The notes beneath the pieces were generated by a model. The model searched no databases and was not told where the DNA came from. It saw nothing but the letters and a program-made list of their open reading frames with translations. A stretch of DNA of 64,000 nucleotides from Paramecium tetraurelia (lineage: Eukaryota), in the NCBI GenBank assembly GCA_000165425.1, contig CT868022.1, positions 124,001 to 188,000 on the forward strand, given 5' to 3'. Positions 21,401-63,248 of the stretch are shown here, one piece after another (position 1 is the stretch's first letter; each line of letters opens with the position of its first letter). Position numbers and translations under genes: made by a program.

Positions 21401-24229
21401 CTCAAGTGGGGGAATTTTAACATGATTTATAAGGAACAGTGGAGTTGCCCAATATATCAGGTGAATTTAAACCTGAGAAACTATTATACGTTGATCAGGC
21501 AATTCAGATTCCATATCAAATTCCCTTTAAGAATGAGTAGATACTAAGAGCAAGATAATAGATATTACAAATACTGTAATTTAAGTAGAAGATTAAATAA
21601 TAATAAAACATCGCTGATAAAACTAGTTCATCTAACAATTTCTTGAATAATCCCAATTTCCCTGGAGGCAATTTAGACTAAATTACGTTTGAATTAGAGG
21701 TATTCCCAGCTACACAATACGTCCAAGTGCCCAACGTTCTTACTGTTGCAGATAGTACGAAAAGATCAACTGATAGAAACAATGATGGCAAATTACCTGT
21801 AACTTATGCCTTTAAAAATGCCACTAGAGATTTTAATGTAATCTTGACATTAAAAAACAAATTTGATATCAGAAGGTATAAGTTAACTGCATAAGTGTTA
21901 CCAAAAGTAGTCAAGGCCACTTTAGAGTTTAGAATACCAGCTAGATAATAAGTGATTTAAGAAGTACCAATAGTAAATGGATCGGATAAGGATTGGGTGA
22001 TTAAAGTGTAATTGACTCAATCTGGAGACAACTTATTTTAATGTCCGAATAAGGAGTTTGTGATAAAGAAGAAAACTACTGGATAATTTCCAATTACATT
22101 TCATCCTCAATGGATAGCTTAGAGTGAGGCCAAATTGATTTTGAGCAATCCAATCACGAATGATATGTTCGAGTATGATTTGATTGGGATTGGAGAAGAG
22201 CCAGTGGCTGAGGAACATATCATTTTGAATTGCACTCCAAGGAGGGTATTAAAAAGAGATATAGAGCTGAAGAATTAGACAGACAAGTAAATAGTCTACA
22301 AAGTTGAGACTGATTTGATCTATGCAACGGGTTAATCTTCAATTACAGTGGGAGCAGGGAAGAAGGCTATTTATTAGTTGACAGTCCAACCAATTTTATC
22401 TGGATAATACACCGGATCCATAACATTCACAGAAGAAAATGGGAAGTATCTATGGTACACAGTTTTCATGAACACAGAGTCACCTAAATCAGTACAAACA
22501 TTAGAATTGTCTTGTTTAATCAGATAGGCCACTGTGATTTAATTGACATTGCAAAACCCTCTTCCAGAGACTGCTATTTATGAAGCAATCATCAGTGGCG
22601 ACGGATTGATAGGTGAAGATCAGTTTGCCATTGGAGCTAATAAGGAGGGTCCTTATGAGTTGACCTTCGCTCCTTTTAAAGTGGGTAGGTGGAGAGGAAG
22701 TGTTGCATTTGTTAATAGATAACTTGGAGAGGTTTGGTATGAATTCATATTGACATGTGAGGAATAGCCAGTGATCAAACTAAATCTGTTGAAGGCATCC
22801 TTGGGAAAGGTGGAATAACAAGTAGTAATACTTGAAAATCCATCTGATCAAAAAGTAACCCTATAATCCAGAGTAAGCAACCCCACCAATTTCGATGTGC
22901 TACCTGATGAATTAGTCATACAACCTTTTGATTATCTAAAAGTCAGCGTCAGATATACTCCTTCCTCTTTAGATTAAATAGAACAATCTGAAATTATATT
23001 TACATCATCAATAGGAAAATGGCATTATTTAGCTTTTGGAAATGGACTTCCTCCAACTAAATTTTCTGCTGCCACTGTTAGCATAGGATTGAACAAGGAT
23101 TTCAGTTCAGTTGTTCATTTTAAGAATCCCTTCAAGGATCCAATTACAGTCAAAATTGACTTGGATGCACAAGGACACAATAAAGATATCTTTAGATTGT
23201 TGACAAGCAAAAATGATAAGGTTTTAGTCCCAGGAATGAATGTCTTACAAATCCCTTATTCATTTGTACCCAGAGAAATCACTAGCTATTATGCCGAAGT
23301 CATTGTCCAAATGAATGAAAAGATTTCTTGGGTTTTCCCTATTAAAGGAGTCACTGAAAGTGTTTCCACTCAGACCTTATTCCACTTCAAAGCCAAATGC
23401 AGAGATAAGTGGGAAGATGAGATTAAAATAGGTTTATAAGGCATTGCTCAAACCTTGTAGGCTGATGATAAATTTGAATTCGAGTTAGGCAATGTACCAG
23501 TGGATCTACAACAAATGATTCAAAAATGCTTTAGTGTTAAATGTACTAAGAACTATCTAAGCAACCCTCATGAGAATCTACATTATGCAGTGCGCTTTCA
23601 ACCTATGAAACCATTCAAAGCCAGTCTCGAATTCATAGTTTTGAGATAAAGTGGAGGCAGATGGAAGTAATATCTCATACATATATCTAGATATAAAATA
23701 ATATTAGAAGCCACTCCCCCCGATGAAGATGATGTCATTATCATTAGTTCTCCTCTAAATAAAACCACCAGTGTCTCCTTCAAACTCACTAACAAAACAA
23801 AAAACTATGCCAAATTCTATGCAGGGTTCACTCCAGATTCCGATGCAGAATTTTCCATCATACCCAAAGTTGGCGATCTTGAGCCTTACGGCAGAGAAGG
23901 GACAACCTTTGTCATATCATTTACTCCAATCGAATATGGCAAAATAAGAAAAGGCAAATTAATCATCTAGACTGAAGAGATGTACTGGTACTACTTACTT
24001 AATATCTCCTAGGTCATATGTCATTAAAGGAATCCTCCCAAGATATGTGCCTCCTCATGTTAAACATTCATCTATTGACACTCATCTAAGTTAATCTCTC
24101 ATTCAACAGTCATCTCTTATGGATTTATCCAAAAACTTTGTCATTGACAACATCAAAAAAGCCAGACAACTCACTCCTCCTTCATCCAGAAAGCAAATCT
24201 TATCAGAAGCATCCTTTTTAAAGAAATGA
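15491..24229 (+). CDS. CFAP47: Cilia- and flagella-associated protein 47 (ASH/PapD-like Ig repeats + calponin-homology domain), ~2,880 aa; three apparent +1 frameshifts
   Basis: N-terminal EVVPNEIIFKDI..VRNLT..RRIR..IAAGLSMKLIVTF; CH-like NFDLDFKDS..HNTEKL..DVYHPNCREMVMML..LPYYVP; C-terminal GGRWKY..DDVIIISSPLNK..FTPDSDAEF..GDLEPYGREGTTFVISFTP.EYGK..LIIQTEEMYW. Introns 15703-15730, 15875-15896 and two near the 3' end. Confidence 0.88.
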
Positions 24230-24836: not shown

Positions 24837-25511
24837 TCAAACAGGTACTTTTACTTCGGTGATAAGACTTTAACAAAGTGGGCATGTTTATTTTACTTTT
24901 AACCATTTTTAGATGCAATCTTCGTGAAAACTGTGAGAACATTTTAAGATTTTATTGTTTTCTGTAATATCCTCTAAACATATATAGCAATTTTTTATTC
25001 CCTACATTTCTCTTAGTTTTTCCTATTTATAACCATCGCATTCAGCAATATGTTCCTTTAGCCAAGCTTTCACTATTGGAAAAGAGCAATAAGGACATTT
25101 CACTTCGCCATAATAATCATATTGGCAGACCTTTAAGTGATCGTTTAAGTATTGCTTAACAATATTATCGCCACATTATCGGCATTGTTATTCAACTAAA
25201 TCAGGATAACTTATTTGTTCTTCACACAGACCAACGTGAACCCAATAATCCTTTTTGAACATTTCGGTATCACAATAAGGACAGCTTACCTAATCATAGT
25301 CACGCGGATCAAATTATTCAATTTATTAGAGATCTTATACTTGTTGTCCAATATCTTAATCTAATTAGGCTATTGGCTAATTTATGACATTTTCTTCTGG
25401 GCTCTAGCATGTTTATTCATCCTATTGTTAACTTTGAGAATTTGGAGACTCATCCTCAAGGTTTTAAATAGGGATAGATGTTGTAATATTCTCACTAGAA
25501 TTTTAGATCAT
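24837..25511 (-). CDS. RING-H2 E3 ligase-like protein with three C2HC (TRAF/XAF1-like) zinc fingers, 224 aa
   Basis: CPYC..HVGLC, CRQC..HLKVC, CPYC..HIAEC, then [33 protein letters not shown]; intronless. Confidence 0.9.
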
Positions 25512-25866: not shown

Positions 25867-27183
25867 ATGAGGGAAATTTTAGTAATATAATTGGGAGGTT
25901 TTGGTAACAAAGTTGGAGTAAAGTTTTGGGAGGAAATGCTAAAAGATAGTGATTTCGGTAACCAAAATGAATAAGGTCTTTAAAGCTAAGATCCCCTACT
26001 TAATTCAATTAATAATGTCTATTTTAACTTAAACTAGAACAAACCACTTCCTAGATGCGTTTAGGTTGATTTGGGACAGGATTTACCTTGTACTAATATA
26101 GACTTTAATCCATGTTCTCAGTTCTCATTCAACTACTCATCTGGCAATAATTATGGGTTTGTAAAGAATCACTGTGCGAATGAAATAATGGACATTATTG
26201 TTGATAGTATCCGATAAGAAACTGAAAAATGCGATTAATTGTAAGGAATCTAATTATTTTCATCCATAATTGGTGGTACTGGATCTGGATTAATAGCTGC
26301 CTTGGACGATAAATTAGGATATGACCCACTACTTTAATATAACTTATTGATTCCTTCTATTAAATAAGACGATGTTTGTGTTGTTTCCCCTTATAACTCT
26401 ATTTTAGCCTTATCCCAAATTATGAATTAGAGGGAATAAATAGTATGTTTTGATAACTAAGGACTTAAATAAAATTTGAGTAGATTGGGAATCGAATTTA
26501 ATTACGATGATGCCAATCATCATATTGCTTAAACAATATGTTGTAATTCTTCGCCATTTCGAAATAATGGGGACATTAATTCTAGTTTGAAAAAACTAAG
26601 TGCAAACTTGATTCCTTTTCCGCAATAAAATTTTCTAACATGCAGCTAGTCCAATAATTAATTCAGTGATTACTTTAAAGAATATTTGAAGATGGACGAA
26701 ACCTAGATTTTCAGAGAATTAATGTCCACAAATCACAATCAAGCTAGCAATGATTACACTTAAGGTCGATTTCTTACTGCAGCACTTAGTTTGAGAGGAA
26801 ATATATCAAATAAAGAGGTTGACAAATCATGCTCCCTTTTCCAACATTATCTAGATAAACAAACTTACTATAGGAGGTAAGAAGCAAAAAAAATAAAGTA
26901 CATTGATATGTTTCTAACGAATATTTGCAAGAAACCATTTTAAAATTTTGAATATTTTGGAAGTTGCTTAATTAATTCAACTAGCATTACTCAATCTCTA
27001 GAGAGCCTAATTGAAAAATTTAATAAAATGTATGTTCGAAAAAGTTATCTATATAAATACACATAAGAAGGAATTGACGAGGATAATTTCATTGATGCTA
27101 AAACTCGCCTTGAAGAGATTTGTGATTCTTATAAAAATACATACTAGGAAGATTTCGGAGAAGGTCATGAAAATTGGGAATGA
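25867..27183 (+). CDS. Highly divergent beta-like tubulin (theta-/BLT-type), 438 aa, intronless
   Basis: MREILVIQLGGFGNKVGVKFWE, PRCVQVDL, SSGNNY, EKCDQLQG..SIIGGTGSG, VVSPYNSILAL, FDNQGL, GDINSSLKKLSANLIPFP, GRFLTAALSLRG, NSTSI, KMYVRKSYLYKYTQEGIDEDNF. Confidence 0.93.
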
Positions 27184-36410: not shown

Positions 36411-36784
36411 TGAAAATAAAGTCACACAACAGGAAAGAACAATGAGGGCTTAAGTATATATGTGGTTCTCATGAACAAAATATTATCATATATAAATTTA
36501 ACCATTAATCTTGTTTCCATTCAGTAGAATGTAATCTTAATCGTATGAAGTAAAACCTCAATCTTTTTTAATTCAATTTAAGGCATTCTTTTATTTTTTA
36601 AATGCAATTCTTTACTTTGCTTTTGAAGTTCTGACAGAATGAAGCCTATTGCTGTTGAGTTAGATCACCATTTTCTAATAAATAAGGGATTTACCTGCTG
36701 TTATTTAACTTCTATACACAAAAGCATAGATTGGTAATTTTATTAATATTATAAATTTAATGCATTGAAACTATTATAAATATA

Positions 36785-39503
36785 ATGCAATTAAATTGGA
36801 AATTAATTTAGTACTATTCAACAAACACTATCAATGTTGCTATCGGACTGCTTTTATATTTATATGATGTTAGTTTAATATTTTCACTTGTACTACTTAT
36901 TTTGAATGGAATAGTATTGTTACTCAGCATATTGATCATTCAAAAACAAAAAAAGTTGATTCCAAAAAAATACTTTCAACAATTTATGAATCTTACTCTA
37001 AGTGTTCATATATCGTATTGCTGTTTTTTAGATAAGGATTTAGCTAGAATAACTTATATTTTATTGAAAGCATTAGAAATATAAATGGTCAAAAAATAAT
37101 CAATAATAAAATCCTTATTATTGCATCTTGCTTACAATATTTTATTCTTTATCTTATTCATAATCCACAAGGAAAATGCAATCTCGTATGTTGTCACAGT
37201 TTATTGTACTCTATTGCTAATTAAGATAAAGTACTCTTCGATAAATCAAGAAAATTAAGAATTCGAATTGCCAGCACAAATGACAAAACCCACACAAAGA
37301 AACTCTGAAATTATCAATTTAATATAAGATTCAATAAGCAATTCTTGGTTGATTCGATTACAAAATATACCAGTGGGCATTATGATAGTTAAAAAGAATA
37401 ATCTTTAAATCATGTTCTAAAACCAGTCTCTGCTTTAAATGTTTGACGGCATTAAGGACATACCCAAATTTCTAATGAACGAATTACAATTCAAACTTCA
37501 AATCAAAAGAAAGAGGAAATAAGTTAAAGAGACAAGTATTAAACTACCGAAGCAATCTCCTAAACAATACAACAGTATTCCGTAGTTTTTTAGTTGCAAC
37601 AAGGTGCCCAGTGTTTAGAGACTTCCTAACACTTTAAATGAAATATTGGTGGAATTATAAAATGGCAATCTGGATTAATTTTATTCAAAGGAAAACAATC
37701 TAGAACTTTTAGCTTAATTGTCAAAATCCAAGTATTCATCCTTTCAGGAGGAAGACTATACAAGATAGATCTAATGCAAGATATTTTGCGGTTAGAACGA
37801 TAATGAATACTTGATCATAATGGATGATATCTCACTGCAAAGCTACTTATAGAAGTTGGAGACTAGGGAGAAATTCTAAGTCAGAATTATTGATTCCTTC
37901 TCCCATGAATTGAGAACTCCATTGAATAGCGCCAAATTATTTTTAGATGGCCTTATTAATGATCCAAGCATCAACGAGAATCACAAATATAATTTTATCT
38001 ATCCTGCTTCCAATGCCCTGAAGTTATAAGCTTATTTAATTAGGGATATTATAGATTTTATCTAATTCCATTCACAAATTATCAAATATAAGTTTGAAGA
38101 ATTTAATTTTGAAGATATAGTCTAAGAAGTAAATGATTTATTTAGACCAATACTCTAAATGAAATACCTTGGATTACACATCATTGTAAAAAACACTGTC
38201 CCTCCATTAATCTACTCAGATTTCGATAGAATCATGCAGATCTTAGTCAATTTAATCTCAAATTCAATCAAATTTTCTGAGAGAGGATTGATTACCTTAG
38301 AAATATCATGCTATGATTCAACTCTAACCTTTTGTGTTAAGGATCAAGGTGTTGGGATAGAAAGTGATTAGTTGCAAAAAATCTAAGAGTTCTTAAAGTC
38401 CTTTAATCAAAACAGAGATTTTTCATGTCATGATGAGTGGTAAGGTTTGGGATTACTTGTCAGCCAAATGAATTTGTTCAAGTTAGCCCCGTTAAACAAA
38501 ACCTATTTGAAAATAAACTCTACTGGCTTAGGCGAAGGTACTTAAGTCACCTTTAAAATTAGGACAACTTAAACTTCAAATACTCAAATATTAGGAACTA
38601 CTATCAAAAGGTAGAGTTTAAGAACTGCATATACAGTCCCTGATCTCTGTATGGGAATTTAAGGGATCTTAATAATTAATAATCCTAAAACGGATGATTT
38701 GATGATTGATAAAAAGCTTTAATAGATTCCGATTAGACATCATTCTTCAATTGCTAATTATTTTCGCCCTTAATAATCCACAGGGTTGTTAAATTAGTAT
38801 GTGTAACCAGAAACAGATCTTTAAGATGAGGACACTCAAAGAGGAAATCTTTAAGGCAATGTAATAAAGTTGAATAGCTCAGCCAAAATATTCTATACCT
38901 TTATCAATAATAAAGAATTAAGGGAAAAATCTATTAAAAGAAGAAAAAAGTCCTCATTTAGTATTTCAGAAATTGATATATAATCAAGCAAACGACCAAA
39001 CACATTAATCTCAAGACTTATTTAAAGGGAGGAACAAGAAATAGAAATGGAAGAGAAGTTTGACAACTTATAATTCCCTTGTTAATGTGCTAGAATTTTA
39101 TCAGTAGATGATGATCTCTTCAATCAAAAAGCATTATAAGTGATAATTGGCCAAATGGGATTTAGATTATTAATAGTAATATTCATTTCATTTTTAGGCA
39201 TATAATGGTTATTAGGCTGTTGAATTAATATAAAACACTGAAAAATGCTCTGAATCATGTAAGTTGTTCCACTTTATTTTGATGGACTGCTAGATGCCCA
39301 TTATGGATGGGTGGACAACCACAAAAGTCCTAATGGATCTCATTAGAGATAAGCAGGTTCCAGATATCCCCATAATAGGTTTGACTGCATTTAATTCAAC
39401 AGAAGATATCAATAGATGCTTTGAGGTTGGTATGAGAGATGTATTGACGAAACCTTTAAATATTAATTAGCTAAAGCAAGCATTACTAAAATTATTTAAT
39501 TGA
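36785..39503 (+). CDS. Membrane-bound hybrid histidine kinase (TM - PAS-like - HisKA - HATPase - receiver)
   Basis: N-terminal hydrophobic helices; LQNIPVGIMIV..FQNQ PAS-like start; SFSHELRTPLN; RIMQILVNLISNSIKFS; VKDQGVGI; QGLGL; receiver ILSVDDDLFN..ILMDCQMPIMDG..IIGLTA..LTKPL; one intron near 39177. Confidence 0.94.
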
Positions 39504-40013: not shown

Positions 40014-40517
40014 ATGACATTCATCGTGAAAACAAGAAAAGTTCTTTTAAAATAAAGTCTTGAAATAAGAAGATAATTAGTAAGCCAATTTATTAAATTA
40101 AAAAGAGTGTTGAATTGCTTCATCCAAATAAGCCAACTCCATCATAAGAATCAGTTGTCAAGGAATTGGCTAGCAAGTATAAAGCTGATGAGAGAAATGT
40201 TGTTGTCTATGGCCTCAGAACAACATTCGGAGGTAACAGAACTACTGGATTTGCTCTCATTTATGACACTTAATAGTATAGCAATAATTAAATAATTCAG
40301 GTATTTACTTAAATTCGAACCAAAATTCAGATTGAGAAGAAGAGGAATTATCCCTAAAAGAGATGGAAGCAGAAAGGGATGGAAAGAAGTCAAATCAAAG
40401 TTAAAGAAGACCAGAGGTGCAGAAAAAACAAAGATTTATATGTCAAGAAAAACAGACAAGAGAGAAGTCATAAGAGCTTAAAAGGAAACTTATCTTAAGG
40501 GTTTTGTTGGAAAATGA
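40014..40517 (+). CDS. RPS24: 40S ribosomal protein S24 (eS24)
   Basis: [55 protein letters not shown]; two introns (26 and 25 nt). Confidence 0.96.
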
Positions 40518-40706
40518 TGATCATAAATATTAATAGTACATTATAATAAAACAAACTAATAATAATTAGCATATTTTCATATTGTATTTATTATGTGATA
40601 CTGATCCTTTTAATAAGCTTCAATAATTAGTATAATTTATGAAGGATTAATTATTTATCTCTCATAATGATTTTATTTTAATTCGTTTTTAATATTTTAA
40701 TTTATT

Positions 40707-43366
40707 ATGAAATTCGGAGTTCTGTTGTTGATTTTCTCGACTCTAGGCATATTTGCTAAGGATGTTACGAAAATTCATGATTGGGTATCAAAGAACATTC
40801 AATCTCTTGAGAAATATATATAAGAAACCGATATGACAAGCGATATTCTGTTAGGCGTTCAAAGAAATGATAAAGGCAAAAAGTAAATCTCCATCCTTAA
40901 ATTAGCTTTTAAAATTGGATATTTTCTACTAATCATAAATAGCATATAGAATTAACAGATGGACAAATCAAGAAGACAACTGCATTCGGTCCAGATTCTG
41001 AGTACTTTACAGAAACTACATAAAACTTTGTTTTTTTAGGAACATAAATAAAGGATAAGGAATGGATAAAGATCTAAATGAAGAAAGGTAATGAAGATAC
41101 TTAAAGAATTGATATGTTTGCTTAAGACAATTATCAAGGTGTCAGTTTAATCAATTCTAATAATGAAGGGACAATGAATCGTTTATTAATAGTAGAAAAA
41201 ATGAATGAAATTATTTCCTCATATGAAGAACAAGGAAAGTCAACAATTAAAATATCAAATTTATCAGAAGGCTAATCCTTATTCTATATTCTTTACAGTC
41301 AAAATTCAGAGGTCAGTGACATTGAGAAGCTATTTAATTACATCGTTAAAAACGTCATCGACCTTGAAAAGGAACATGATATTAATGCTGATGAATAACC
41401 AGTTACCTAGGATGATGGAGAAGAAGAATCAGATCCCAATGGACATGAAAAATCTGACTAACCCAAAAAGGAAGGAGATGGTGAAGAAAATTAAGTTGAA
41501 GGTTAAGAATAAGAACACGAATAAGAGCATTAGGAAGTACCTGAAGAAGATTGTCCAGGAGGAGAAGAAGATGATACTGCGAAGAATAAAGTTGATGTTG
41601 ATGACACTAAACAATTGCCATCTTAGGATGATCCAAAAAATGTGAAAATATAAACAAATGGTGTTGACTCATAAGAAAAAGAGGAAGTAATTGAAGAATC
41701 AGAAGAAGAAGATGAGGAGGTCGATGCTCCACCAAAAAAGAATTAAGGGTAGGATGAAAATAGTGAACCTGAGCCTCCTTCTGAGGAATATTAGAATTGT
41801 GCAGGAGAAGAGTTGGATACAGTAAAAAATAAGAGAGACTTGAACTAAAACTAGGAATCCAAACAAGGGAGAGTATTTTAGGCAAAAGAAGTGTCAATCA
41901 AAGACACAATTCATGAAGAAGAAGGTGAAGGAGATGGGCAGACAGGTGAATAAGGAAATACTTAAGGAGAAGAAAAGCCTGATGATTCTGAAGGAAAGAC
42001 TGAAGGAACAAATGGAGCAACAGATGATGCTGAAGGAAAAACTGATGATACTACTGGAACTGAGGGAAAGACTGATGCTGCTGATGGAACTGAAGGAAAG
42101 GCTGAAGGAACAACTGATGAATCCGAAGCAACAGAAGGAAAAACGGATGATACTAATGGAACTGAAGGAACAACACATGAGCCTGAAGTAACAGAAGGAA
42201 AAACTGAGGGAACAACTGATGAGCCTGAAGTTACAGAAAGTAAACCTGATGATACCAAGGGAACTGAAGAAACATCGCATGAACATGAACATGAGCATGA
42301 TGTAACTGAAGGAAAGACCGATGATACTAAGGGAACTGAAGGAACAACAGATGAACATGAAGTTACTGAAGAAAAGACAGATGCTACTTAGGGAACTGAA
42401 GGAGCAACAGATTAGCATGAAGGAACTGAAGGAGCAACAGATTAGCATGAAGGAAAGGCTGATGATACTTAGGGAACTGAAGGTACAACGGATGAACATG
42501 AAGTAACTGAAGGAAAGACTGATGATTCTTAAGGTACTGAAGGAACAACAGATTAGCATGATGGAACAACAGATGAACATGAAACAACTGAAGGAAAAAC
42601 TGATGATACCAAGGAAACTGAAGGAACAACCGATGATCCTGAAGTAACCGAAGGTAAAACCGATGATACTAAGGGAACTTAAGAAACATCACATGAACAT
42701 GAACATGAACATGAACATGAACATGAACATGAACATGAACATGAACATGAACATGAACATGAACATGAACATGAACATGAACATGAACATGAACATGAAC
42801 ATGAACATGAACATGAACATGAACATGAACATGAACATGAACATGAACATGAACATGAAATAACTGAAGGAAAGACTGATGATACTTAGGGAACTGAAGG
42901 AACAACAGATTAACATGAACATGAAAATGAAGTAACTGAAGGAAAAACCGACGATGCTAAAGAAACTGAAGAAACTACAGATGGATAAGCAGATGATTAA
43001 TCAAAAACCCAACATGAAAAAGAAAATCACAAATAGGAACCAGAAGTAAAAATAATATATATTTTAAAGGAACCTTGCGTAATTTTATACTCAGAATGCC
43101 ATTTCACTGGTGACGAATTAAAACTGTGCGGTGCTCACCCTGTTATTCCAAATGATATGAAAAACTTTAAAGTGAAATCAATAAAGGTTCCCGAAGGTGT
43201 TTAGGTTACATTCTTTAATAAGCCTAACTTTGATGATGAAAAATTACATGCTAAAAATGAGATGGAATGTCTTGAAACACCTTTAAGATTGAATTTACTA
43301 GAATTGATGAATAACCTAAGAATGTCAAAGCATATTAATATAAACTCTATATCAGTTACAAATTGA
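40707..43366 (+). CDS. Secreted acidic repeat protein (~870-878 aa) with (His-Glu)28 tract and C-terminal beta/gamma-crystallin domain
   Basis: Signal peptide MKFGVLLLIFSTLGIFA; ~200-aa globular region; long E/D/T/G-rich repeats; C-terminal PCVILYSECHFTGDELKLC..VKSIKVPEGVQVTFFNKPNFDD..MECL (two Greek-key motifs); one 23-nt intron, possible second 24-nt intron. Confidence 0.88.
41975..42990 (+). repeat. Degenerate coding tandem repeat, unit ~TEGKTDDTxGTEGTTDEHEV (~60 bp)
   Basis: Recurrent actgaaggaaa(a/g)actgatgatact..ggaactgaaggaacaacagat..catgaa blocks. Confidence 0.9.
42692..42859 (+). repeat. Perfect hexamer microsatellite (CATGAA)28 encoding (His-Glu)28
   Basis: 168 nt of uninterrupted CATGAA, in frame with the 40707 ORF. 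Confidence 0.98.
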
Positions 43367-46215
43367 TAATTGAATATTTAGTTTATATTTACAAAAAATA
43401 TTCTATAATAAGCAATTTTTCGTTATTTAAATAAAATAAATCCCAATTAATAATGTTTTAATTTTACTATAATTTATAATGATAAGATTCATTCCCAATT
43501 CCTATATTATTATACAAAAGGATATTCACTAATTTGAATACATAATATCATACTTATTTTATAAATAAATAATTTAAATAGTATTTTGGAGATTTAATGG
43601 TTTTTCTTTATCTTTGGCATATATATCAATAAGATAATTATTACGTTTTCTTCATTCAATACAAAATTAATACAATTTATTATAACCTGAAAATGGCTAG
43701 TTTACTGAGTTGAGATATCTACAATTAACCCATCAAAATATAAAAAGCAAATAATTTCTTAAACCAAAAAAAGATAAATAGAGTTTAAGACCCAAATTGA
43801 GGAGAATAATAAAAAAATTATCTGATTTATAATGAACAATATGGTAGAAATAGGAGAAGGTTTTTAAAACTAATTAGATTTGCCAGCTAATTGATTAAAG
43901 ACTGTAATATAAAAAATTCTCTTTGAAAAGTAATTCTAATTTCATTTATGCTCAATGGCAATTAAAAAAGAATGTTATTATGATGACCTAGATAATTATT
44001 CTTCTAATAAATTATGCTCAAATAAATTAAAAGATTAGCAGTCGGGATTTAAATATTACATTGTTACACTGGAATGTAAATTCTAATTAGCAATACTTAT
44101 ATGTTATTTGTGTAGACAACTACGTAAGTAAAAAAACTTACAACTTTTATTAAAGGCTTTATGCCATGGTCACAGTTTGCTTAATTATTAAATGTTTATA
44201 GATTTTAAGCATGATTAATTGAAACAAAAGTAAAAATTATTTTTGATAGAAATAAAATTAGGATAAAATTATTAAAAATAACAATTCTAAGTTCGAGGTG
44301 ATAAGATGTGCGTTAAATATAAAAGACCCTTTATTTTTATTTAACTTTAATAAATTTGAATTATTAAACTCTTATTCTGATACTCACAATTATGTTTTAA
44401 AAAATACATTAGAGAAATCTATCTATTTAAAAGCAATCAATTTGAAGGGTAGGCTATTTTTACTAAATCATTTAAATAGAGTGATAATTTGCACTGATAA
44501 TAATTAATAAACTATTAACAAATAATATATGCTCGTCCATCACCAATGAAAAATTTATTTAATTTGCTATAGAACTTACCTTGAATTACATTCAATTGAT
44601 AAATTTTCACAGTATGTATTGAAATCGAATTATTCATTAATTATTTAATTTAATTTTCGAGTCAAGCAAACTTAAGAAAAATAACAATGGTTAAAATTTC
44701 AATCAAATGTAAATACAATAAGTTTCAGTTTTATAGAAATATTGAAAATAATTATAGTTCATGGTGATATCGATGCATAAAATAAGTAAATTATTATAAT
44801 CATATTAATGATGCTTCCACATCCATAAATGAGAATTAAACAACTATTTTCTTCCTTAGAGCTTTTATCAAATATTATATGTTCATTCTCACTATCATCT
44901 AATAAATAATGTTTTTCCTCATCTATATTTTAGATTGATATTTATTACATATATTTATTTAATGAAATAATATTTTTTTACAGAAAGCATTTATTTTATG
45001 TTGGATGCAAAAAACGTCTTAATACAAAGAAAAAGCACTGAATGGAGAAATTTAGCATTAAGCAATAGCAAACCAAATCATAAATATTTCTTAGTTAATT
45101 AATTGATTATAATAATTGTAATATCAAGTTCGTTGAATGATATTTATCATTATATTCTAATCAGGTTAAACAAATATAACTTTTATAGAATTTTGAAAAT
45201 TCACAGTTTATTGCTACAAACAAGATGTTCTTTAACTTTAAATAAAATAAATCATGTAAAAGACATATTTAATTGATGAATATTAAAGTATAGTCATTAG
45301 AGAAGGATAAATAGAAATTTCATAACAATATTGACACTTAAGCATGCAAATCATTTTAATTCAATTTTTCTAAATTAAAGTAAATTTAGTGATTAATACA
45401 TAGATTATCTTTAAAATACACATATAATCTCTATCATGATAGTATTTTTTTAAAGCATCTTACGATTAAATCTTTGTATTTGTGGATTTTGGAATAACTT
45501 TTTCCACTAATTAAAACTAAAATTTAAAGCAAACTACTTAAGATTTCAATTAAAAATTGAATAAAAAAGAAAGTTTCAGATTCCTTCTCCGTTTTAACTA
45601 AAATTTAAATAAAGAACAGCTTCTGCAAAGCAAATATTTAATGTGATATATCTCCTCTAGATTTTATTTTAACTCTACAATGCTAGATCGATTGAAAAAA
45701 TGAGCAATAACCTTTTCTATCTAACAATTTTATTTTTTCTCTAAAAGAATTCTTCCATAAATGTTCATTTTCGTATTCATCCCACTTCACCAAAATATCA
45801 ATAATATATTTTCATGATAAATAATGCTGTTTGGGTAATAGGATAATATTTATCTTGACCTAAAACAGATTTTAGTTTTCAGACTTAAGAGATATTTTAA
45901 TTTATTATAAAAACTGCACATGGATTTTAAATGTCTAAAACCAAAAAAATCTCAAGATTAAACCATTATTTATTAAATAGCTTTAGAATTAATAATGCTC
46001 TAATAATAGTTTACAAAAATAATAAGGAATTTCAGAAGAAAATTCGTTTTAAAATTAATCATCTTATATTTTTTTTTGTCGTATATTTCAATTTTTCATT
46101 AGAGCATTAACAATTAGAAATTCTTTGCAATGTTTTACAGGATTAGTTTTTCTCAAGTTTATCAATGAAGTTTAATATATCTGAGATATTTTTTAATTAT
46201 TTTATAAATAGTATA

Positions 46216-48710
46216 ATGAATCCAAGTTCTCCTCATTGGAGAAGTTAAAATATCGACAACTCTGATCTTGTAGATGAAAGAATATATAGCATTCGAACGG
46301 ACAACAATAAACAATCACTCCTAAAGAAAAAATATTAGAGTGTAGTTTAATAATTAGATAATGATGATCAAATTGAAGACATCAATTTACTCTTTGATGA
46401 TAGATAGTTAAAAATAATAAACGATTTATCATTTGTGCAGACAGCAAAAATTAAAGAAAAGCCAGGCAGGGCATCAATTTCTAGGAAAATGAGTGTTATG
46501 ATTCAAAATAAAGAATAAGAAGAAAAATAACCAAGTTGTTCTTACATTTAAGTTTTTACTTAAGAAGATAAAATACGAATAGTTTGGGATGTTTTTACAA
46601 TGTTAGTAATCTTTTTAGCAATATTAATACTACCAGTTGAAATTTCTTTTAATGTAGAATCCTCTTTCTTAGATGATTTTAATATTTTTAGTTTATCAGT
46701 TTTTACACTCGATATTTTCATAAACTTCAATACAGCCTTTTAACATAAAGGTTAATACGTATTTGATAGGAAATTGATCTTTTAAAATTATTTAAAATGG
46801 TGGTTCTGGATAGATGTAGGTATTTATAAAAATTAAATATAGTTTCTACATTCCCTTTCGATTTAATTGTCGAAGCTGCAACATCAAGTGTAGTGAAAGT
46901 AGACGAAGATGAATTAAACTAACAATAAAATAAGTCCCAAAAGGATTCACTAGTATAAACAATGAAATTGCTTAGGATTCTAAAATTTTTTCGATTAATA
47001 AAAATTATAAGGTTGTTACGTCTATTAAAACTGAAGCAGCTTTTTGCTAAATTAGAAGATTATATAGATATCAGCGGGTCTGTTATCACAATATACTAAT
47101 TGCTTAAATTAACTTTTATAATGCTTTTTGTTGCCCATTGGTTAGCTTGCATTTGGCATTTCATAGCTGAATAAGAAAATAGTTCTAATGGCTATAGTTG
47201 GTTATAGGCTACAGAACTTGCAGAACAATATTGGTACATAAAATATGTGGCATCGGTTTATTGGGCTACTGCAACAATGACTACGGTTGGCTATGGTGAT
47301 ATCGTCCCAGTTACATCTGTTGAGAAATTATTTGGTATCATTGTCATGTTATTGGCTTGTTGTGTTTTTGCTTACATAATGAATAGCATTGGAGGCATCT
47401 TTGTCAAATTAGATACAAATGAAAAAACTATAAGATTGAAACTTGGATAAGCAAACTAATTTTTGAAATCTAATGAGATACCCAAAGATTTACAGGCAAG
47501 AGTGAGGAAATATTTGGAATATAAATATGAGACAGAATCATCATAGGTAAATGAAAAGGATGCATTATCAGTTCTATCATCCACTTTGAAGGACGAAGTG
47601 TTATAGAATGTGAATACTTCATTAATTAAATAGTCAGCTTTTTTTAATTCAGGTAAATTTGAGAAAGAAATATTATCTTAATTACCCTACCTTTTGGAAG
47701 AACAAATCTATGGTCCAGAAGAATGCATATTTTTGGAAGGAATTGACCCAATTGAGAAAGAGAATGGCAACAATATTCAGGACAGAAATTTGTATTTCCT
47801 AAATTAAGGACAGGTTCTTATTTGTATTTAGAAGACAATTACCTGTTTAAAAATAATTGAGGGAGGAGCTACTTTTGGAGAATTGGCATTTTTTACAGAT
47901 AAACCGAGAAGTGCCTCTGCTTATACACTAAATTTCGTCTATGTATAGGTTCTAAACAAAAAAAAGTTTTTTGAAAAACTCAAACTCAATAGTAGCTAAA
48001 ACTAAATATACCTAATGAATAAACATATTGTAGAAATTAATAATGATTACACTCCCTTAGGGTAATGTTGCTTTGCTTGTATGAGTAGCTCTCACTTTGC
48101 TTATGAATGCCCCAAACTTCATTACGTTGTAAATGAAGAAAAAAGACTTGAAATAATTAAAGAAGAACAGTTCAATCAAGAAAATAGCTTAAAAATATTT
48201 AATAGATAATATATAAGGCAAAACAAAAGAGTTAAGTACAATTCAAGAGCGAATTCTTAACTAACCAATGTTGTAGCCGATGAAATCAAATTTGTATACA
48301 ATCATAACCGCGAAGGCGAAGATGACCTTTTAATTTAATCTAATCAGTAATGTATATTATTAAGTTCAGATCAAATGGCACAGAGGAAGAGGATGAAAAT
48401 CCTTTCAAAATGAGTGTCAAAGGGCAGCTCGTTTAATTTTCCGAAGAAACTGATATTGATAGGATGTGTAAGTTTCCTCTTTTCTTTCCCAATTATAACT
48501 ATGATAAAATTATTTAGACTTATAACTAATTCACTCCAGAGATTAGAAAAGAGATCATAAAGAATAACAACTAAGTGAATTAAAAAAATAGAGGCCAGAG
48601 ATCCCATTCTGCAGAAAGAGCTTAATACTTTTAAAGATTAGAAGAAAAGTGCTTTGCCGAGTAATGATTATGTAATTAAAAATCTATTCACTGAGAAATC
48701 CCATATCTGA
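46216..48710 (+). CDS. Cyclic-nucleotide-binding-domain K+ channel (KCNH/HCN-like)
   Basis: RIVWDVF, S4 KLLRILKFFRLIKIIRLLRLLKL, AHWLACIW, YWATATMTTVGYGDI, C-linker IPKDLQARVRKYLEY, CNBD FGELAFFTDKPRSASA; 23-nt intron near 46820. Confidence 0.95.
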
Positions 48711-61130: not shown

Positions 61131-63248
61131 ATGGGAGAAAAGAAAGTAGATCGATTTGTTTTCAAAATGAGTGACAAGATTGGATAAGGATCTTATGGAC
61201 AAGTATTTTACTTACATATGAAGGTCTTTAAAGGCTAAGATGAAAAAACTAAATAATTGGTAGCCATAAAGATGGTTTCGAAAGCACTCATTAATGAAGA
61301 TGAATATTTAAGGGATGGTTTGATGAATGAAATTAAAATAATGAGAGATTTATAGGGTAACAATGTAGTAAGGTTTATTGATGTGCTTGAAACAAACAAT
61401 AATTACTATATTGTCTAAGAATTTTGTGACGGTGGAGATTTGCAAAAGTAAAACTTAAACAAAGTTAGTCAATTGAAAAAGAAGAAGTTTTTGCCTCAGA
61501 AAGAAGCAATTCAGCTGTTCATTGATGTTCTTTTGGGCATGATTGAATTGGTCAAGAAGGGAATCATACACAGAGATTTGAAGCCAGCAAATATCCTCAT
61601 CAACAAGGGCATCTATAAAATAGCAGGTATTATGTTGTGAACACTCTTTTAGATTTTGGGTTTTCAAAAGCTATTGATAACTTTAGGAAGCAAATGATTG
61701 AATCTGTTGTGGGTACACCTCTTTATCAATCTCTTTAATTGTTGAAGGCAGAAAAATACACATCCAAGAGTGATATTTGGTCTTTGGGCTTTATCTTTTA
61801 TGAGACTCTGTTTGGCCAGAGTAATTGAGTTAAGTATTATTCTTTTAGCTCCGTGGATTGCCAGATCGATTCCTGAATTAGTGAAGAATATTACATCTGT
61901 GCCATTGAAATTCCCACAGGATAAAAATGTAGACCCATAGATCTTAGATATGATAAGAGGCTGTCTGTAATTGTAAGAAAAGGACAGATTAGGTTGGGAT
62001 CAATTATACAGACATGCTTGTTTTGGACAGAGTTTCTCTTTCTATACAAATCAAGCCAAATAGCTAGAGGACAAGGCAATGTTTTTGGTGTAAGATTTAA
62101 GATTTAAAGTTATGAAAGATAAGATCGATTTGGAAAAGGTGTTTATCAAATATGACAAATCAGGAGATAACTCACTAGATATGAAAGAGTAATGTGAGTG
62201 ATTTTATTAGATTAACTTTGTTATTGCATGAGATAGACCCGAAATTGGATAGAGAGGAGATCGAATACATCTTCAACAAAATAGATCTGGATAGCAGTAA
62301 CTCTATTGAGTTGAATGAATTCAAAAAATGGTTGGAGGAGAATCAAGTCTAAATGTCCATGAGAAACTAGTCTAAACCACACATCTAAAGAAAAGGAACT
62401 GTAGAGATGCCAAAGGTTTATCCTAATAATTCAGAACAAGTAATTCCAGATTTTGATAATACATAACATGTATAACATATAAGTCCTTAATAATAATAAT
62501 AGTAATAAATAGGAAGTCAATAATAATAGTAATATTAGAAATAATATACAAATTAATAATCATAATAATATCCATAATAATAATAATAATAGTAATAATA
62601 AGTAGGAACTCAATAATAATAATATTAGAAATAATATTCAAATTAATTATCATAATAATATCCATAATTACCATAGTAATAATAATAATAATATCCACCA
62701 TAATAATATTCACAATAATTTTAATATCCAAATTCTCCTGGATAATAAGGTACGGCTGGCTCTTAATAACAGTATCAAATGTAATCTCAACCCTTTCCTC
62801 AAATGAACAATTCATAACAATTCAATTAAGGCTTTTATCAACAACCTCCAGCCTATATACCTAATCAGTAACCTCAGCCACCCCAAAATTTAGCTTAAGA
62901 GAGAGCTATGTTGACTATCTAAAAATTGGTTATTGCAATTGAGAAATACAACATTAACATCTACGATCTATTTAGAAAGTATGATAAAACTGAATCACAG
63001 TCGTTGGATATGAAAGAGTTCGGAGTGATGCTCAGGTATCCCAATTAAAACTAATCTTTTACCATAGGAAAATCGATAGTCAATTGACTGATCAAGATAT
63101 TAATCAGGCCTTTTGGATTTTTGACGTTGACAGAAGCCAAGAAATCACTTTCAAAGAGTTCCAAGATGGAATCGTTTCGTACTTAAATCAATGGAAAGCC
63201 CAGGTTAATTAATAAAACAGTGTTGGTTACCAATATTAAAAATATTGA
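61131..63248 (+). CDS. ULK/Atg1-type Ser/Thr kinase with two EF-hand pairs separated by a polyQ/Tyr/Pro linker
   Basis: IGQGSYGQVFKG, VAIK, QEFCDGGDL, HRDLKPANIL, DFG, VGTPLYQSLQLL, KYTSKSDIWSLG; EF loops DKSGDNSLDMKE, DLDSSNSIELNE, DKTESQSLDMKE, DVDRSQEITFKE; six tiny introns. Confidence 0.9.
62488..62730 (+). repeat. Coding (TAA/TAG)n polyglutamine tract with an ~90-bp internal duplication
   Basis: Runs of taa/tag in frame; QQQQQQ(I/V)G(S/T)QQQQYQKQY(T/S)NQxSQQYPQ occurs twice (~62491-62577 and ~62581-62667). Confidence 0.9.

What the first reader, a model, noticed from the sequence alone, without database searches (positions are those of the whole stretch)
40707..43366. Secreted beta/gamma-crystallin protein with a huge acidic repeat stalk: candidate metal- or pH-responsive granule cargo
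Seen: signal peptide, ~200-aa globular domain, ~550 aa of Glu/Asp/Thr/Gly/His repeats, a KR dibasic site (KNKRDL), a C-terminal crystallin domain with Cys residues, and no TM or obvious GPI tail. Established: C-terminal beta/gamma-crystallin domains mark the second family of ciliate dense-core-granule cargo (Tetrahymena Grt1p/Igr1p) and Paramecium PCM proteins; acidic granule proteins condense with Ca2+ and low pH. Inference: a chromogranin-like or HRC-like ion-buffering component of trichocysts or another secretory compartment. This is the best candidate for undescribed biology in the window.
Basis: partly seen in the sequence, partly recalled or inferred. Interest (0 to 1): 0.7.

Follow-up and report, generated by a model that had tools for sequence, protein, structure and literature searches.

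The report
Paramecium secreted acidic crystallin-tailed protein

Summary
Under the ciliate code (TGA the only stop) 40707-43366 (+) is a two-exon gene; a 23-nt intron (40883-40905) is absent from transcript-type contigs, and stranded poly(A) RNA reads cover the gene. [quoted passage not shown] The window is most likely Paramecium tetraurelia. The closest long relatives that carry a name are Paramecium proteins with the same plan: low-complexity acidic/Q/N middle and a single C-terminal crystallin domain. That plan matches what papers report for Tetrahymena Grt1p/Igr1p, whose C-terminal crystallin domain is reported sufficient for mucocyst targeting. Trichocyst localisation, metal or pH response and direct homology to Grt1p/Igr1p could not be tested. 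The KR 'processing site' is weak. Both canonical Ca2+ motifs of the crystallin domain are degenerate. I found no protein with these domains in the public protein sets searched, although two neighbouring genes are there. Verdict: a real gene, a new member of a known kind with an unusual repeat stalk, of moderate interest.

The parts
40707..43366 (+). Whole gene (ATG to TGA), 878-aa product, predicted mature form about 97 kDa, pI 4.4
   Evidence: transcribed on the + strand
40707..40882 (+). Exon 1 (58 codons plus 2 nt): leader MKFGVLLLIFSTLGIFAK and the start of the N-terminal region
   Evidence: transcript contigs begin at 40701/40706
40707..40760 (+). Predicted signal peptide (residues 1-18; the only strongly hydrophobic segment)
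   Evidence: KD19 1.71 at residues 3-21. No SignalP was available; the cleavage site is inferred
40883..40905 (+). 23-nt intron GTAAATCTCCATCCTTAAATTAG
   Evidence: 'left out 23' at 40883 in 1 contig each of X3 and X8; raw-read depth dips to 3.2-3.8 in bin 40856-40931
40761..41374 (+). N-terminal beta-rich domain (residues 19-215, interrupted by the intron); family unknown; carries one Greek-key-like motif FAQDNYQG...NEIISS
   Evidence: No Pfam family at E<=0.01. One 70%-identical 106-aa fragment P0163. AF2 pLDDT 52, 10 strands plus 1 helix. No fold match. hhalign against the crystallin family, probability 0.4%
41375..41914 (+). Non-repetitive acidic linker (residues 216-395, net charge -41) with two Cys (275, 357) in a duplicated motif; KNKR at 41825-41836
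41915..43039 (+). Tandem-repeat polyanion (residues 396-770; net -112; 43 His; T 20%, E 24.5%): alternating decamers TEGKTDDTKG / TEGTTDEHEV
42692..42859 (+). (HE)28 tract = perfect (ACATGA)28 microsatellite, grown out of the ...TSHEHE..V variant of the second decamer
   Evidence: TRF 42691-42859, 28.2 copies, 100% matches
43040..43363 (+). C-terminal 108 residues holding the beta/gamma-crystallin domain (core about 43070-43327, residues 781-866), four Cys
   Evidence: Pfam PF00030 27.1 bits. Protein S 1prr E=0.0011 by sequence. 235 library proteins at E<=1e-3. AF2 pLDDT 67. Foldseek's listed matches are essentially all beta/gamma-crystallins. VIA 1nps Z 10.0, rmsd 2.4, 82 aligned

Best explanation
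A soluble secretory-pathway protein of Paramecium (most likely P. tetraurelia). It belongs to the ciliate class of proteins that end in a single, Cys-stabilised beta/gamma-crystallin domain. This is the class reported for Tetrahymena Grt1p/Igr1p, and I also see it in several Paramecium proteins.

Proposed mechanism:
- The leader takes the protein into the ER. The leader itself is read from the sequence; ER entry is inferred.
- The C-terminal crystallin domain acts as the sorting or anchoring module for a lysosome-related regulated secretory organelle, most likely the trichocyst. This is inferred by analogy with Grt1p/Igr1p, which depend on the sortilin Sor4p.
- The N-terminal beta-rich domain and the 555-aa polyanionic, His-containing disordered stalk are the payload. 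The stalk would be a low-affinity, high-capacity binder of cations and/or a hydrated spacer. Its charge changes steeply between pH 5.5 and 7 because of 55 His, 28 of them in (HE)28. The charge change is calculated; binding and spacer roles are inferred.

The crystallin domain itself probably does not bind Ca2+ in the canonical way.
For: Real, expressed, spliced gene: (X21/X22 raw RNA reads on one strand; X3/X8 contigs lack the 23-nt intron).

Secretory character: a single N-terminal hydrophobic segment, no TM segment or GPI-like tail, no KDEL-type end.

Crystallin domain: Pfam 27.1 bits against a cut-off of 25; Protein S by sequence, E=0.0011; AF2 with a 24-sequence alignment, pLDDT 67; Foldseek's listed matches are essentially all beta/gamma-crystallins, best E 3.1e-4; VIA Z 10.0, rmsd 2.4 A, 82 aligned to 1nps, with 39 of 687 chains at Z>=8.

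Family:
- The library search gave 235 proteins at E<=1e-3.
- Of the 150 listed, 5 distinct proteins of at least 200 aa have one detected domain within 30 aa of the C-terminus: P0043, P0111, P0142, P0147, P0079.
- Four of these 5 were looked up by name and all 4 are Paramecium primaurelia/pentaurelia entries. P0147 was not looked up.
- All 5 have low-complexity acidic/Q/N-rich middles.
- 3 of the 5 score at or above the Pfam Crystall cut-off; P0147 falls just under it (24.2 bits) and P0079 has no Pfam hit at E<=0.01.
- The Cys pattern C..YS.C.[FY].G..L..C....S..CL is shared (C30 in >=90% of 24 rows; S47 and P51 invariant).

Conservation: fragments 87%, 85%, 57% and 54% identical to the C-domain and 70% identical to the N-domain exist in other assemblies.

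Literature, passages read:
[quoted passage not shown] - Eight further crystallin-domain genes are co-expressed with mucocyst genes (PMC11661410).

Charge: mature protein -101 at pH 5.5 and -149 at pH 7.0; HE tract -0.9 and -21.2 (generic pKa values).
Against: - There is no localisation, co-expression or binding data for this protein.
- Direct similarity to Tetrahymena Grt1p/Igr1p was not tested, because no Tetrahymena sequence could be obtained here. The link rests on shared architecture and on papers.
- Beta/gamma-crystallin domains also occur in Paramecium PCM1-4, which were isolated from ciliary membranes (PMC9608856), so the domain does not by itself specify granules.
- 2 of the 5 family members (P0147, P0079) show no N-terminal leader in their deposited forms.
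- The (HE)28 tract is a 100% pure microsatellite. That argues for recent slippage rather than a length under selection.
- The second Greek key lacks the signature Gly (FFNKPNFDD), and both Ca2+ motifs are degenerate.
- AF2 confidence for the C-domain is only moderate (67), and the N-domain model is poor (52).
- Mature mucocysts are non-acidic (PMC12752500, abstract), which limits 'low-pH condensation' to immature stages.
Confidence: 0.45

Rival explanations
1. A PCM-like or constitutively secreted extracellular protein. It would leave the cell by the default route or sit on the cell or ciliary surface, where the crystallin domain mediates attachment and the polyanion forms a hydrated, cation-binding coat.
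For: Paramecium PCM1-4 carry a beta/gamma-crystallin domain and were purified from ciliary membrane vesicles (PMC9608856, passage). The protein has a leader and no retention signal. Many relatives in the library are multi-domain extracellular-type proteins.
Against: There is no TM segment, GPI-type tail or Cys-rich IGFBP-like domain such as is annotated for the PCMs. The nearest named long relatives share the Grt/Igr-like plan, not the PCM plan.
Confidence: 0.22
2. A lumenal low-affinity, high-capacity Ca2+ buffer of the ER or the cortical alveolar sacs. This would be functionally analogous to HRC or calsequestrin.
For: Composition parallels HRC: signal sequence, tandem acidic repeats with His, and a Cys-containing C-terminus. 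HRC is over 30% acidic and 13% His (PMC6171002, passage). Here the repeat region is 36% D+E and 11.5% His.
Against: There is no ER-retention motif at the C-terminus (it ends ...SISVTN). There is no sequence similarity to HRC or calsequestrin (no such Pfam hit at E<=10). The C-terminal domain is a crystallin fold, not a CxxC cluster.
Confidence: 0.1
3. A lysosomal or phagosomal (digestive-vacuole) lumenal protein that uses the same sortilin-type route. His/Glu repeats would buffer pH or chelate metals from ingested bacteria.
For: In Tetrahymena the crystallin-domain cargo uses a lysosomal-type sorting receptor (PMC3824020). The charge of the His-rich stalk titrates exactly over the endolysosomal pH range.
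Against: No direct data. The known crystallin-domain cargoes are granule proteins, not lysosomal ones.
Confidence: 0.08
4. The repeat stalk has no specific ion or pH function. It would be a neutrally expanding low-complexity spacer, with the (HE)28 tract produced by microsatellite slippage, and function would reside only in the two terminal domains.
For: (ACATGA)28.2 at 100% identity. The repeat units are only 66-85% matched, with indels. Family members have unrelated low-complexity middles of very different length, in proteins of 241 to 1267 aa.
Against: The reading frame is kept over 375 repeat codons. The composition (E/D/T/G/H/K, almost no hydrophobic residues) is uniform. A shorter HEHEHE run recurs in another unit, and a degenerate HEHENE in a third.
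Confidence: 0.3

Closest known systems
Tetrahymena thermophila Grt1p / Igr1p (Grt/Igr family of mucocyst cargo, 13 genes)
   Same: [quoted passage not shown] In Tetrahymena that domain is reported sufficient for granule targeting and dependent on the sortilin Sor4p. Authors predicted Paramecium homologues at the trichocyst tip (PMC3824020, passages).
   Different: No sequence comparison with Grt1p/Igr1p was possible here. This protein has a distinct beta-rich N-domain and a 555-aa polyanionic stalk with (HE)28. Its localisation, regulation and processing are unknown.
Paramecium 'Beta/gamma crystallin Greek key domain-containing' proteins (P0043 = UniRef A0A8S1LUY5, P0142 = A0A8S1SVP7, P0111 = A0A8S1WHJ3, P0079 = A0A8S1K974)
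   Same: A low-complexity acidic/Q/N middle and a single C-terminal crystallin domain with the same four-Cys pattern. P0043, P0142 and P0111 also begin with a hydrophobic leader and pass the Pfam Crystall cut-off over profile positions 2 to about 60.
   Different: Only 23-32% identity to them in the alignment. P0079 has no leader in its deposited form and no Pfam hit at E<=0.01. They lack this N-terminal domain and the TEGKTDDTKG/TEGTTDEHEV/(HE)n repeats. Their tails end in a basic NLRxxQ-type sequence, while this protein ends in NINSISVTN. This protein's own subfamily has D in place of the signature G in Greek key 2.
Paramecium PCM1-4 (calmodulin-binding proteins from ciliary membranes)
   Same: Paramecium proteins annotated with a beta/gamma-crystallin domain (PMC9608856, passage).
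   Different: The PCMs also carry an IGFBP-N-terminal-type Cys-rich domain and are about 65 kDa. No such domain was found here. Calmodulin binding was not tested.
Histidine-rich Ca2+-binding protein (HRC) of sarcoplasmic reticulum; chromogranins
   Same: Signal sequence, tandem acidic His-containing repeats, Cys-containing C-terminus, and an expected low-affinity, high-capacity cation binding (PMC6171002, passage).
   Different: Analogy only. The repeat unit is unrelated (HRHRGH plus an acidic run in HRC, against TEGKTDDTKG-TEGTTDEHEV here), there is no CxxC cluster, and the lineage and compartment differ.
Microbial single-domain beta/gamma-crystallins (Protein S N-domain 1nps, clostrillin 3i9h, flavollin 3hzb)
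   Same: The best structural matches of the predicted C-domain: Z 9.6-10.0, rmsd 2.4-2.5 A, 81-82 residues aligned.
   Different: Those domains carry canonical N/D-N/D-X-X-S/T-S Ca2+ sites (PMC3551895). Here the corresponding positions read NFKVKS and NEMECL, and four Cys are added.

Membership tests
beta/gamma-crystallin superfamily (Pfam PF00030 Crystall) | Profile match above Pfam's gathering score | tested here: met
   27.1 bits against a cut-off of 25 for the isolated 108-aa C-terminus. Only 22.8 bits when the 819-aa exon-2 product is scanned. The match covers profile positions 2-55 of 82.
beta/gamma-crystallin superfamily (Pfam PF00030 Crystall) | Signature Y/F-x4-Y/F-x-G in Greek key 1 | tested here: met
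   YSECHFTG (residues 787-794), read. The signature is as given in PMC3551895.
beta/gamma-crystallin superfamily (Pfam PF00030 Crystall) | Signature Y/F-x4-Y/F-x-G in Greek key 2 | tested here: not met
   The sequence is FFNKPNFDD, with the Gly replaced by Asp. The same is seen in the 85-87% identical fragments, whereas the other Paramecium members keep the G.
beta/gamma-crystallin superfamily (Pfam PF00030 Crystall) | Two-Greek-key beta-sandwich fold | tested here: met
   Predicted only. AF2 pLDDT 67; Foldseek's listed matches are essentially all crystallins; VIA 1nps Z 10.0, rmsd 2.4, 82 of 88 residues aligned.
Ca2+-binding subset of beta/gamma-crystallins | Canonical N/D-N/D-X-X-S/T-S motif in each Greek key | tested here: not met
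   The positions read NFKVKS and NEMECL. The motif is as given in PMC3551895.
Ciliate Grt/Igr granule-cargo family | N-terminal signal sequence and soluble lumenal protein | tested here: met
   Hydrophobic leader at residues 3-21 (KD19 1.71) and no other hydrophobic segment. This is a sequence-based inference; no SignalP was run.
Ciliate Grt/Igr granule-cargo family | [quoted passage not shown] | tested here: met
   The domain core ends 12 residues before the stop codon.
Ciliate Grt/Igr granule-cargo family | Sequence homology to Tetrahymena Grt1p/Igr1p themselves | not testable with these tools
   No Tetrahymena sequence could be retrieved. None of the 20 library hits looked up by name was a Tetrahymena entry.
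Ciliate Grt/Igr granule-cargo family | Localisation in dense-core granules (mucocysts or trichocysts) | not testable with these tools
   Needs tagging or organelle proteomics.
Ciliate Grt/Igr granule-cargo family | Co-regulation with granule genes / induction on regranulation | not testable with these tools
   The held supplements of PMC3091696 contain no gene lists (2 of 3 files unreadable), and the gene has no identifier that I could obtain.
Ciliate Grt/Igr granule-cargo family | No proteolytic processing | not testable with these tools
   The single KR lies in copy 2 of a duplicated motif whose copy 1 reads KNKV. That only suggests it is not a conserved processing site.
Paramecium PCM family | IGFBP-N-terminal-type Cys-rich domain together with the crystallin domain | tested here: not met
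   Pfam found no such domain at E<=10. The protein has only 6 Cys in all.
HRC (histidine-rich Ca2+-binding protein) | HRHRGH-plus-acidic 29-residue repeats and a C-terminal CxxC Cys cluster | tested here: not met
   The repeat unit differs, there is no CxxC cluster and no Pfam hit.

The most novel reading that the evidence does not exclude
The protein is a component of the still uncharacterised Paramecium trichocyst tip or sheath, delivered by its crystallin tail. Its (HE)28-bearing stalk would work as a built-in pH switch. It would be nearly uncharged and compact while the forming organelle is acidic. As the organelle neutralises during maturation it would become strongly polyanionic, by about -20 on the HE tract and about -50 on the whole protein. 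This would couple de-acidification to Ca2+/cation loading or to spacing of the tip matrix.
Probability: 0.12. Interest if true: 0.7.

Novelty: new member of a known kind. Interest (0 to 1): 0.4.

Why it matters
Trichocyst tip and non-matrix cargo proteins of Paramecium have not been identified at the molecular level in the papers I could search (PMC3824020 calls them unknown). A Paramecium family with the Grt/Igr plan gives concrete candidates, and this gene is its most elaborate member seen here. If the stalk really is a cation- or pH-responsive polyampholyte, it would be a simple natural model for charge-switching disordered proteins in secretory organelles that are acidic when forming and neutral when mature. 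On the practical side, I could not find a protein with these domains in the public protein sets searched, even though the gene is transcribed and spliced, so the locus may deserve an annotation check.

Tried and rejected
1. Relatives by word-indexed search.
- N-domain at near lengths: none of 283 candidates.
- C-domain at near lengths: none of 41 candidates.
- N-domain at shorter lengths: 1 of 78 candidates, P0163.

2. Own genome: none is held.

3. Earlier findings of the scan: nothing by place, sequence or words.

4. ESM Atlas: it does not take ciliate-code readings, so the N-domain was not examined there.

5. Sequencing-run index: no RNA holder listed. The evidence for expression comes only from laying raw RNA runs. 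The 3' end, the polyadenylation site and the absence of introns in that part are therefore unverified.

6. Idea that the N-domain is a second crystallin domain. It was prompted by FAQDNYQG...NEIISS and by weak repeated alignments to one Greek key of the multi-crystallin protein P0005 (each 3.5 bits or less). It is not supported by Pfam, hhalign (probability 0.4%, 19 columns), Foldseek (0 matches at E<=1e-3, TM <=0.27) or VIA wide (best Z 4.5, 0 of 48,161 chains at Z>=5). The model itself is poor (pLDDT 52, alignment of 2 sequences), so the fold remains open.

7. Paralogues in the window: an HMM of the family against the six-frame translation found only the gene itself (next best E 0.068).

8. 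Microarray check of induction after exocytosis. The supplements of PMC3091696 that could be read hold only a sample table; 2 of 3 files are picture PDFs.

9. Papers not held: PMC117993 (Haddad 2002), PMC2756869 (Rahaman 2009) and PMC4708285 (Bowman 2005a). Bowman 2005b is not in the library. The family definition is therefore taken second-hand from PMC3824020, PMC4142616 and PMC9159632.

10. Joints reported in the repeat (42361>42492 in 6-7 reads; 42649>42236 in contigs) are read as mis-laying between repeat units, not as splicing.
Full report
**1. What is there**

Read with the ciliate nuclear code (TAA/TAG = Gln, TGA the only stop), the interval holds two in-frame-shifted open frames, 40707-41081 and 41078-43366. 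They are joined by removing a 23-nt GTA...TAG intron at 40883-40905. The spliced CDS is 2637 nt and encodes 878 residues plus stop.

The splice is confirmed. Two transcript-type contigs (runs X3 and X8) span 40701/40706-42421 with exactly 23 nt left out at 40883 and no other gap. Oligo-dT, strand-specific raw RNA reads (X21, X22) cover 40704-42650 at a depth of roughly 3-109 in one orientation. Depth is about zero in 40552-40703 and dips at the splice site.

**2. Organism**

- The window has 22-36% G+C, uses TGA as its only stop and has a 23-nt intron.
- Two neighbouring intron-less ORFs are letter-for-letter in the public protein collection, on a 262,693-bp contig. They are a divergent tubulin at 25867-27180 and a RING protein at 24840-25511 (-).
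- The tubulin's 90% cluster is represented by 'beta tubulin, putative [Paramecium tetraurelia]'.

The window is therefore most likely a P. tetraurelia macronuclear scaffold.

The target itself was not found. The 762-aa M-start form is not in the collection. Word-indexed searches with either terminal domain found no self-hit. The exhaustive search with the C-domain found nothing closer than an 87%-identical 69-aa fragment. Proteins longer than 1434 aa were not searched.

**3. Anatomy**

- Residues 1-18, MKFGVLLLIFSTLGIFAK. This is the only strongly hydrophobic stretch (KD19 1.71; the next highest is 0.94, inside the crystallin domain). There is no TM segment, no hydrophobic C-terminus and no KDEL-type end.
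- Residues 19-215, an ordinary-composition, Cys-free region.
- Residues 216-395, an acidic, non-repetitive linker (net charge -41). Its two Cys (275 and 357) each sit in a copy of the motif C-[PA]-G-x-E-E-x-D-T-x-K-N-K-[VR]-D-[VL].
- Residues 396-770, tandem repeats of alternating decamers TEGKTDDTKG and TEGTTDEHEV (TRF period 60 nt, 10.4 copies, 66% matches). One ...TSHEHE..V variant is expanded to (HE)28, encoded by (ACATGA)28.2 at 100% identity.
- Residues 771-878, the C-terminal domain with Cys at 783, 790, 800 and 847.
- The mature protein is about 97 kDa with pI 4.4, and contains 156 E, 99 T, 83 D and 55 H.

**4. The C-terminal domain is a beta/gamma-crystallin domain**

- Pfam Crystall scores 27.1 bits (cut-off 25) on the isolated domain and 22.8 bits in the long context.
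- phmmer against PDB sequences gives Protein S, E=0.0011.
- AlphaFold2 with a 24-row alignment gives pLDDT 67.
- Foldseek's listed matches are essentially all beta/gamma-crystallins: AIM1, nitrollin, clostrillin, Protein S and the lens crystallins.
- VIA-align gives Z 10.0, rmsd 2.4 A and 82 aligned residues to the Protein S N-domain, and Z 9.6-10.0 to clostrillin and flavollin.

Greek key 1 carries the signature (YSECHFTG). Greek key 2 reads FFNKPNFDD, with the signature Gly lost. The two positions of the canonical Ca2+ motif N/D-N/D-X-X-S/T-S (motif from PMC3551895) read NFKVKS and NEMECL. Canonical Ca2+ binding by this domain is therefore unlikely.

**5. Relatives**

The exhaustive library search gave 235 proteins at E<=1e-3, 42 at E<=1e-10, and listed the best 150. 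Most are multi-domain proteins with 2-15 crystallin repeats.

Five distinct long proteins have a single domain at the extreme C-terminus: P0043 (241 aa), P0142 (302 aa), P0147 (285 aa), P0111 (457 aa) and P0079 (1267 aa).

- Of the 20 hits looked up by name, 5 are Paramecium entries and 1 is from Paulinella. The Paramecium entries include P0043, P0142, P0111 and P0079, and also P0151, a P. tetraurelia H-lectin plus crystallin protein.
- All five have low-complexity acidic/Q/N middles.
- Three (P0043, P0111, P0142) begin with a clear leader. P0147 and P0079 do not in their deposited forms.
- The Cys pattern is shared.
- Three of the five (P0043, P0142, P0111) pass the Pfam Crystall cut-off over profile positions 2 to about 60. 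P0147 scores 24.2 bits, just under the cut-off of 25, and P0079 has no Pfam hit at E<=0.01.

Close fragments from other assemblies show that both terminal domains are conserved in related paramecia or in an ohnologue. For the C-domain they are P0003 (87%), P0011 (85%), P0024 (57%) and P0092 (54%). For the N-domain it is P0163 (70%).

**6. The N-terminal domain**

No Pfam family was found at E<=0.01. The AF2 model is all-beta, with 10 strands and a helix, but has low confidence (pLDDT 52). No fold match was found by Foldseek or by VIA wide (best Z 4.5).

One stretch, FAQDNYQG...NEIISS, looks like a single Greek key with a near-canonical Ca2+ motif. It aligns weakly and repeatedly to Greek keys of a multi-crystallin protein. 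A profile-profile comparison with the C-domain family gives a probability of only 0.4%. I record this as a lead, not a finding.

**7. How it most likely works**

Shown:
- The gene is transcribed and spliced.
- The sequence has a leader and no membrane anchor.
- It has a C-terminal crystallin fold (predicted).
- The closest named relatives are Paramecium proteins built on the same plan.

From papers (passages read):
[quoted passage not shown] The domain is reported sufficient for mucocyst targeting and may be the ligand of the sortilin Sor4p.
- They are neither aggregated nor processed.
- Trichocyst tip proteins are unknown and were predicted to be Grt homologues (PMC3824020, PMC4142616, PMC9159632).
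- Further crystallin-domain genes are co-expressed with mucocyst genes (PMC11661410).

Inferred: this protein is delivered by its tail to trichocysts or another lysosome-related secretory organelle. The polyanionic stalk then binds cations at low affinity and high capacity and/or acts as a hydrated spacer.

Calculated: with generic pKa values, the HE tract goes from about -1 at pH 5.5 to -21 at pH 7.0, and the mature protein from -101 to -149. This matters because forming mucocysts are acidic and mature ones are not (PMC12752500, abstract).

**8.

- The KR site is probably not a processing site, because it lies in a duplicated motif whose first copy has KNKV and because Grt proteins are unprocessed.
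- The 100%-pure HE microsatellite suggests recent slippage.
- Crystallin domains also occur in the ciliary-membrane PCM proteins (PMC9608856).
- Nothing about localisation, co-regulation or binding was testable here.

**9. Novelty**

This is a new, unusually elaborate member of a known kind, namely ciliate secretory proteins with a crystallin tail. Homology to Grt1p/Igr1p themselves is untested. In my literature searches I found no paper that describes this protein or identifies Paramecium crystallin-tailed granule proteins. The library lacks most subscription journals.

Noticed in passing
window 40400-40551: The 3' end of an upstream + strand gene has RNA depth around 500-1200, well over ten times the target's depth. 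At six positions a third to a half of reads carry another base, and loose ends appear at 40517/40527. This looks like reads from a close paralogue (ohnologue) with a different 3' UTR.
   Followed up: no
window 25867-27183 (+): An intron-less divergent tubulin (Pfam Tubulin 130.8 bits, Tubulin_C only 21.3 bits). The exact sequence is in public protein sets. Its 90% cluster representative is named 'beta tubulin, putative' of P. tetraurelia.
   Followed up: partly
window 15757-24078 (+): A run of large open frames with ASH / HYDIN / CFAP65 / Cep192-type Ig-like domains. It is probably one or two ciliary or centriolar giant genes.
   Followed up: no
window 36659-39223 (+) and 45859-48413 (+): The genes flanking the target are a histidine-kinase-like protein (HisKA plus HATPase_c) with N-terminal hydrophobic segments, and a cyclic-nucleotide-binding K+ channel. 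I see no functional link to the target.
   Followed up: no
window 62185-63087 (+): A Q-rich open frame in which 62 codons are TAA/TAG. The product carries long poly-Q/PQQ runs before a short ordinary C-terminal part.
   Followed up: no
window 41084-41224 (residues about 128-165 of the product): The N-terminal domain carries FAQDNYQG ... NEIISS. This is one Greek-key-like signature with a near-canonical Ca2+ motif, although no method supports a crystallin fold for the domain.
   Followed up: yes
window 41557, 42329, 42353: Minor alternative bases appear in RNA reads: A>T at 41557 in 13 of 50 and 12 of 58 reads, and lower shares at the other two sites. They could be an allele, strain differences or reads from an ohnologue.
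   Followed up: no
window 40707-43366: I could not find a protein with these terminal domains in the public protein collections searched, although two neighbouring genes of the same scaffold are present. Models longer than 1434 aa were not searched.
   Followed up: partly
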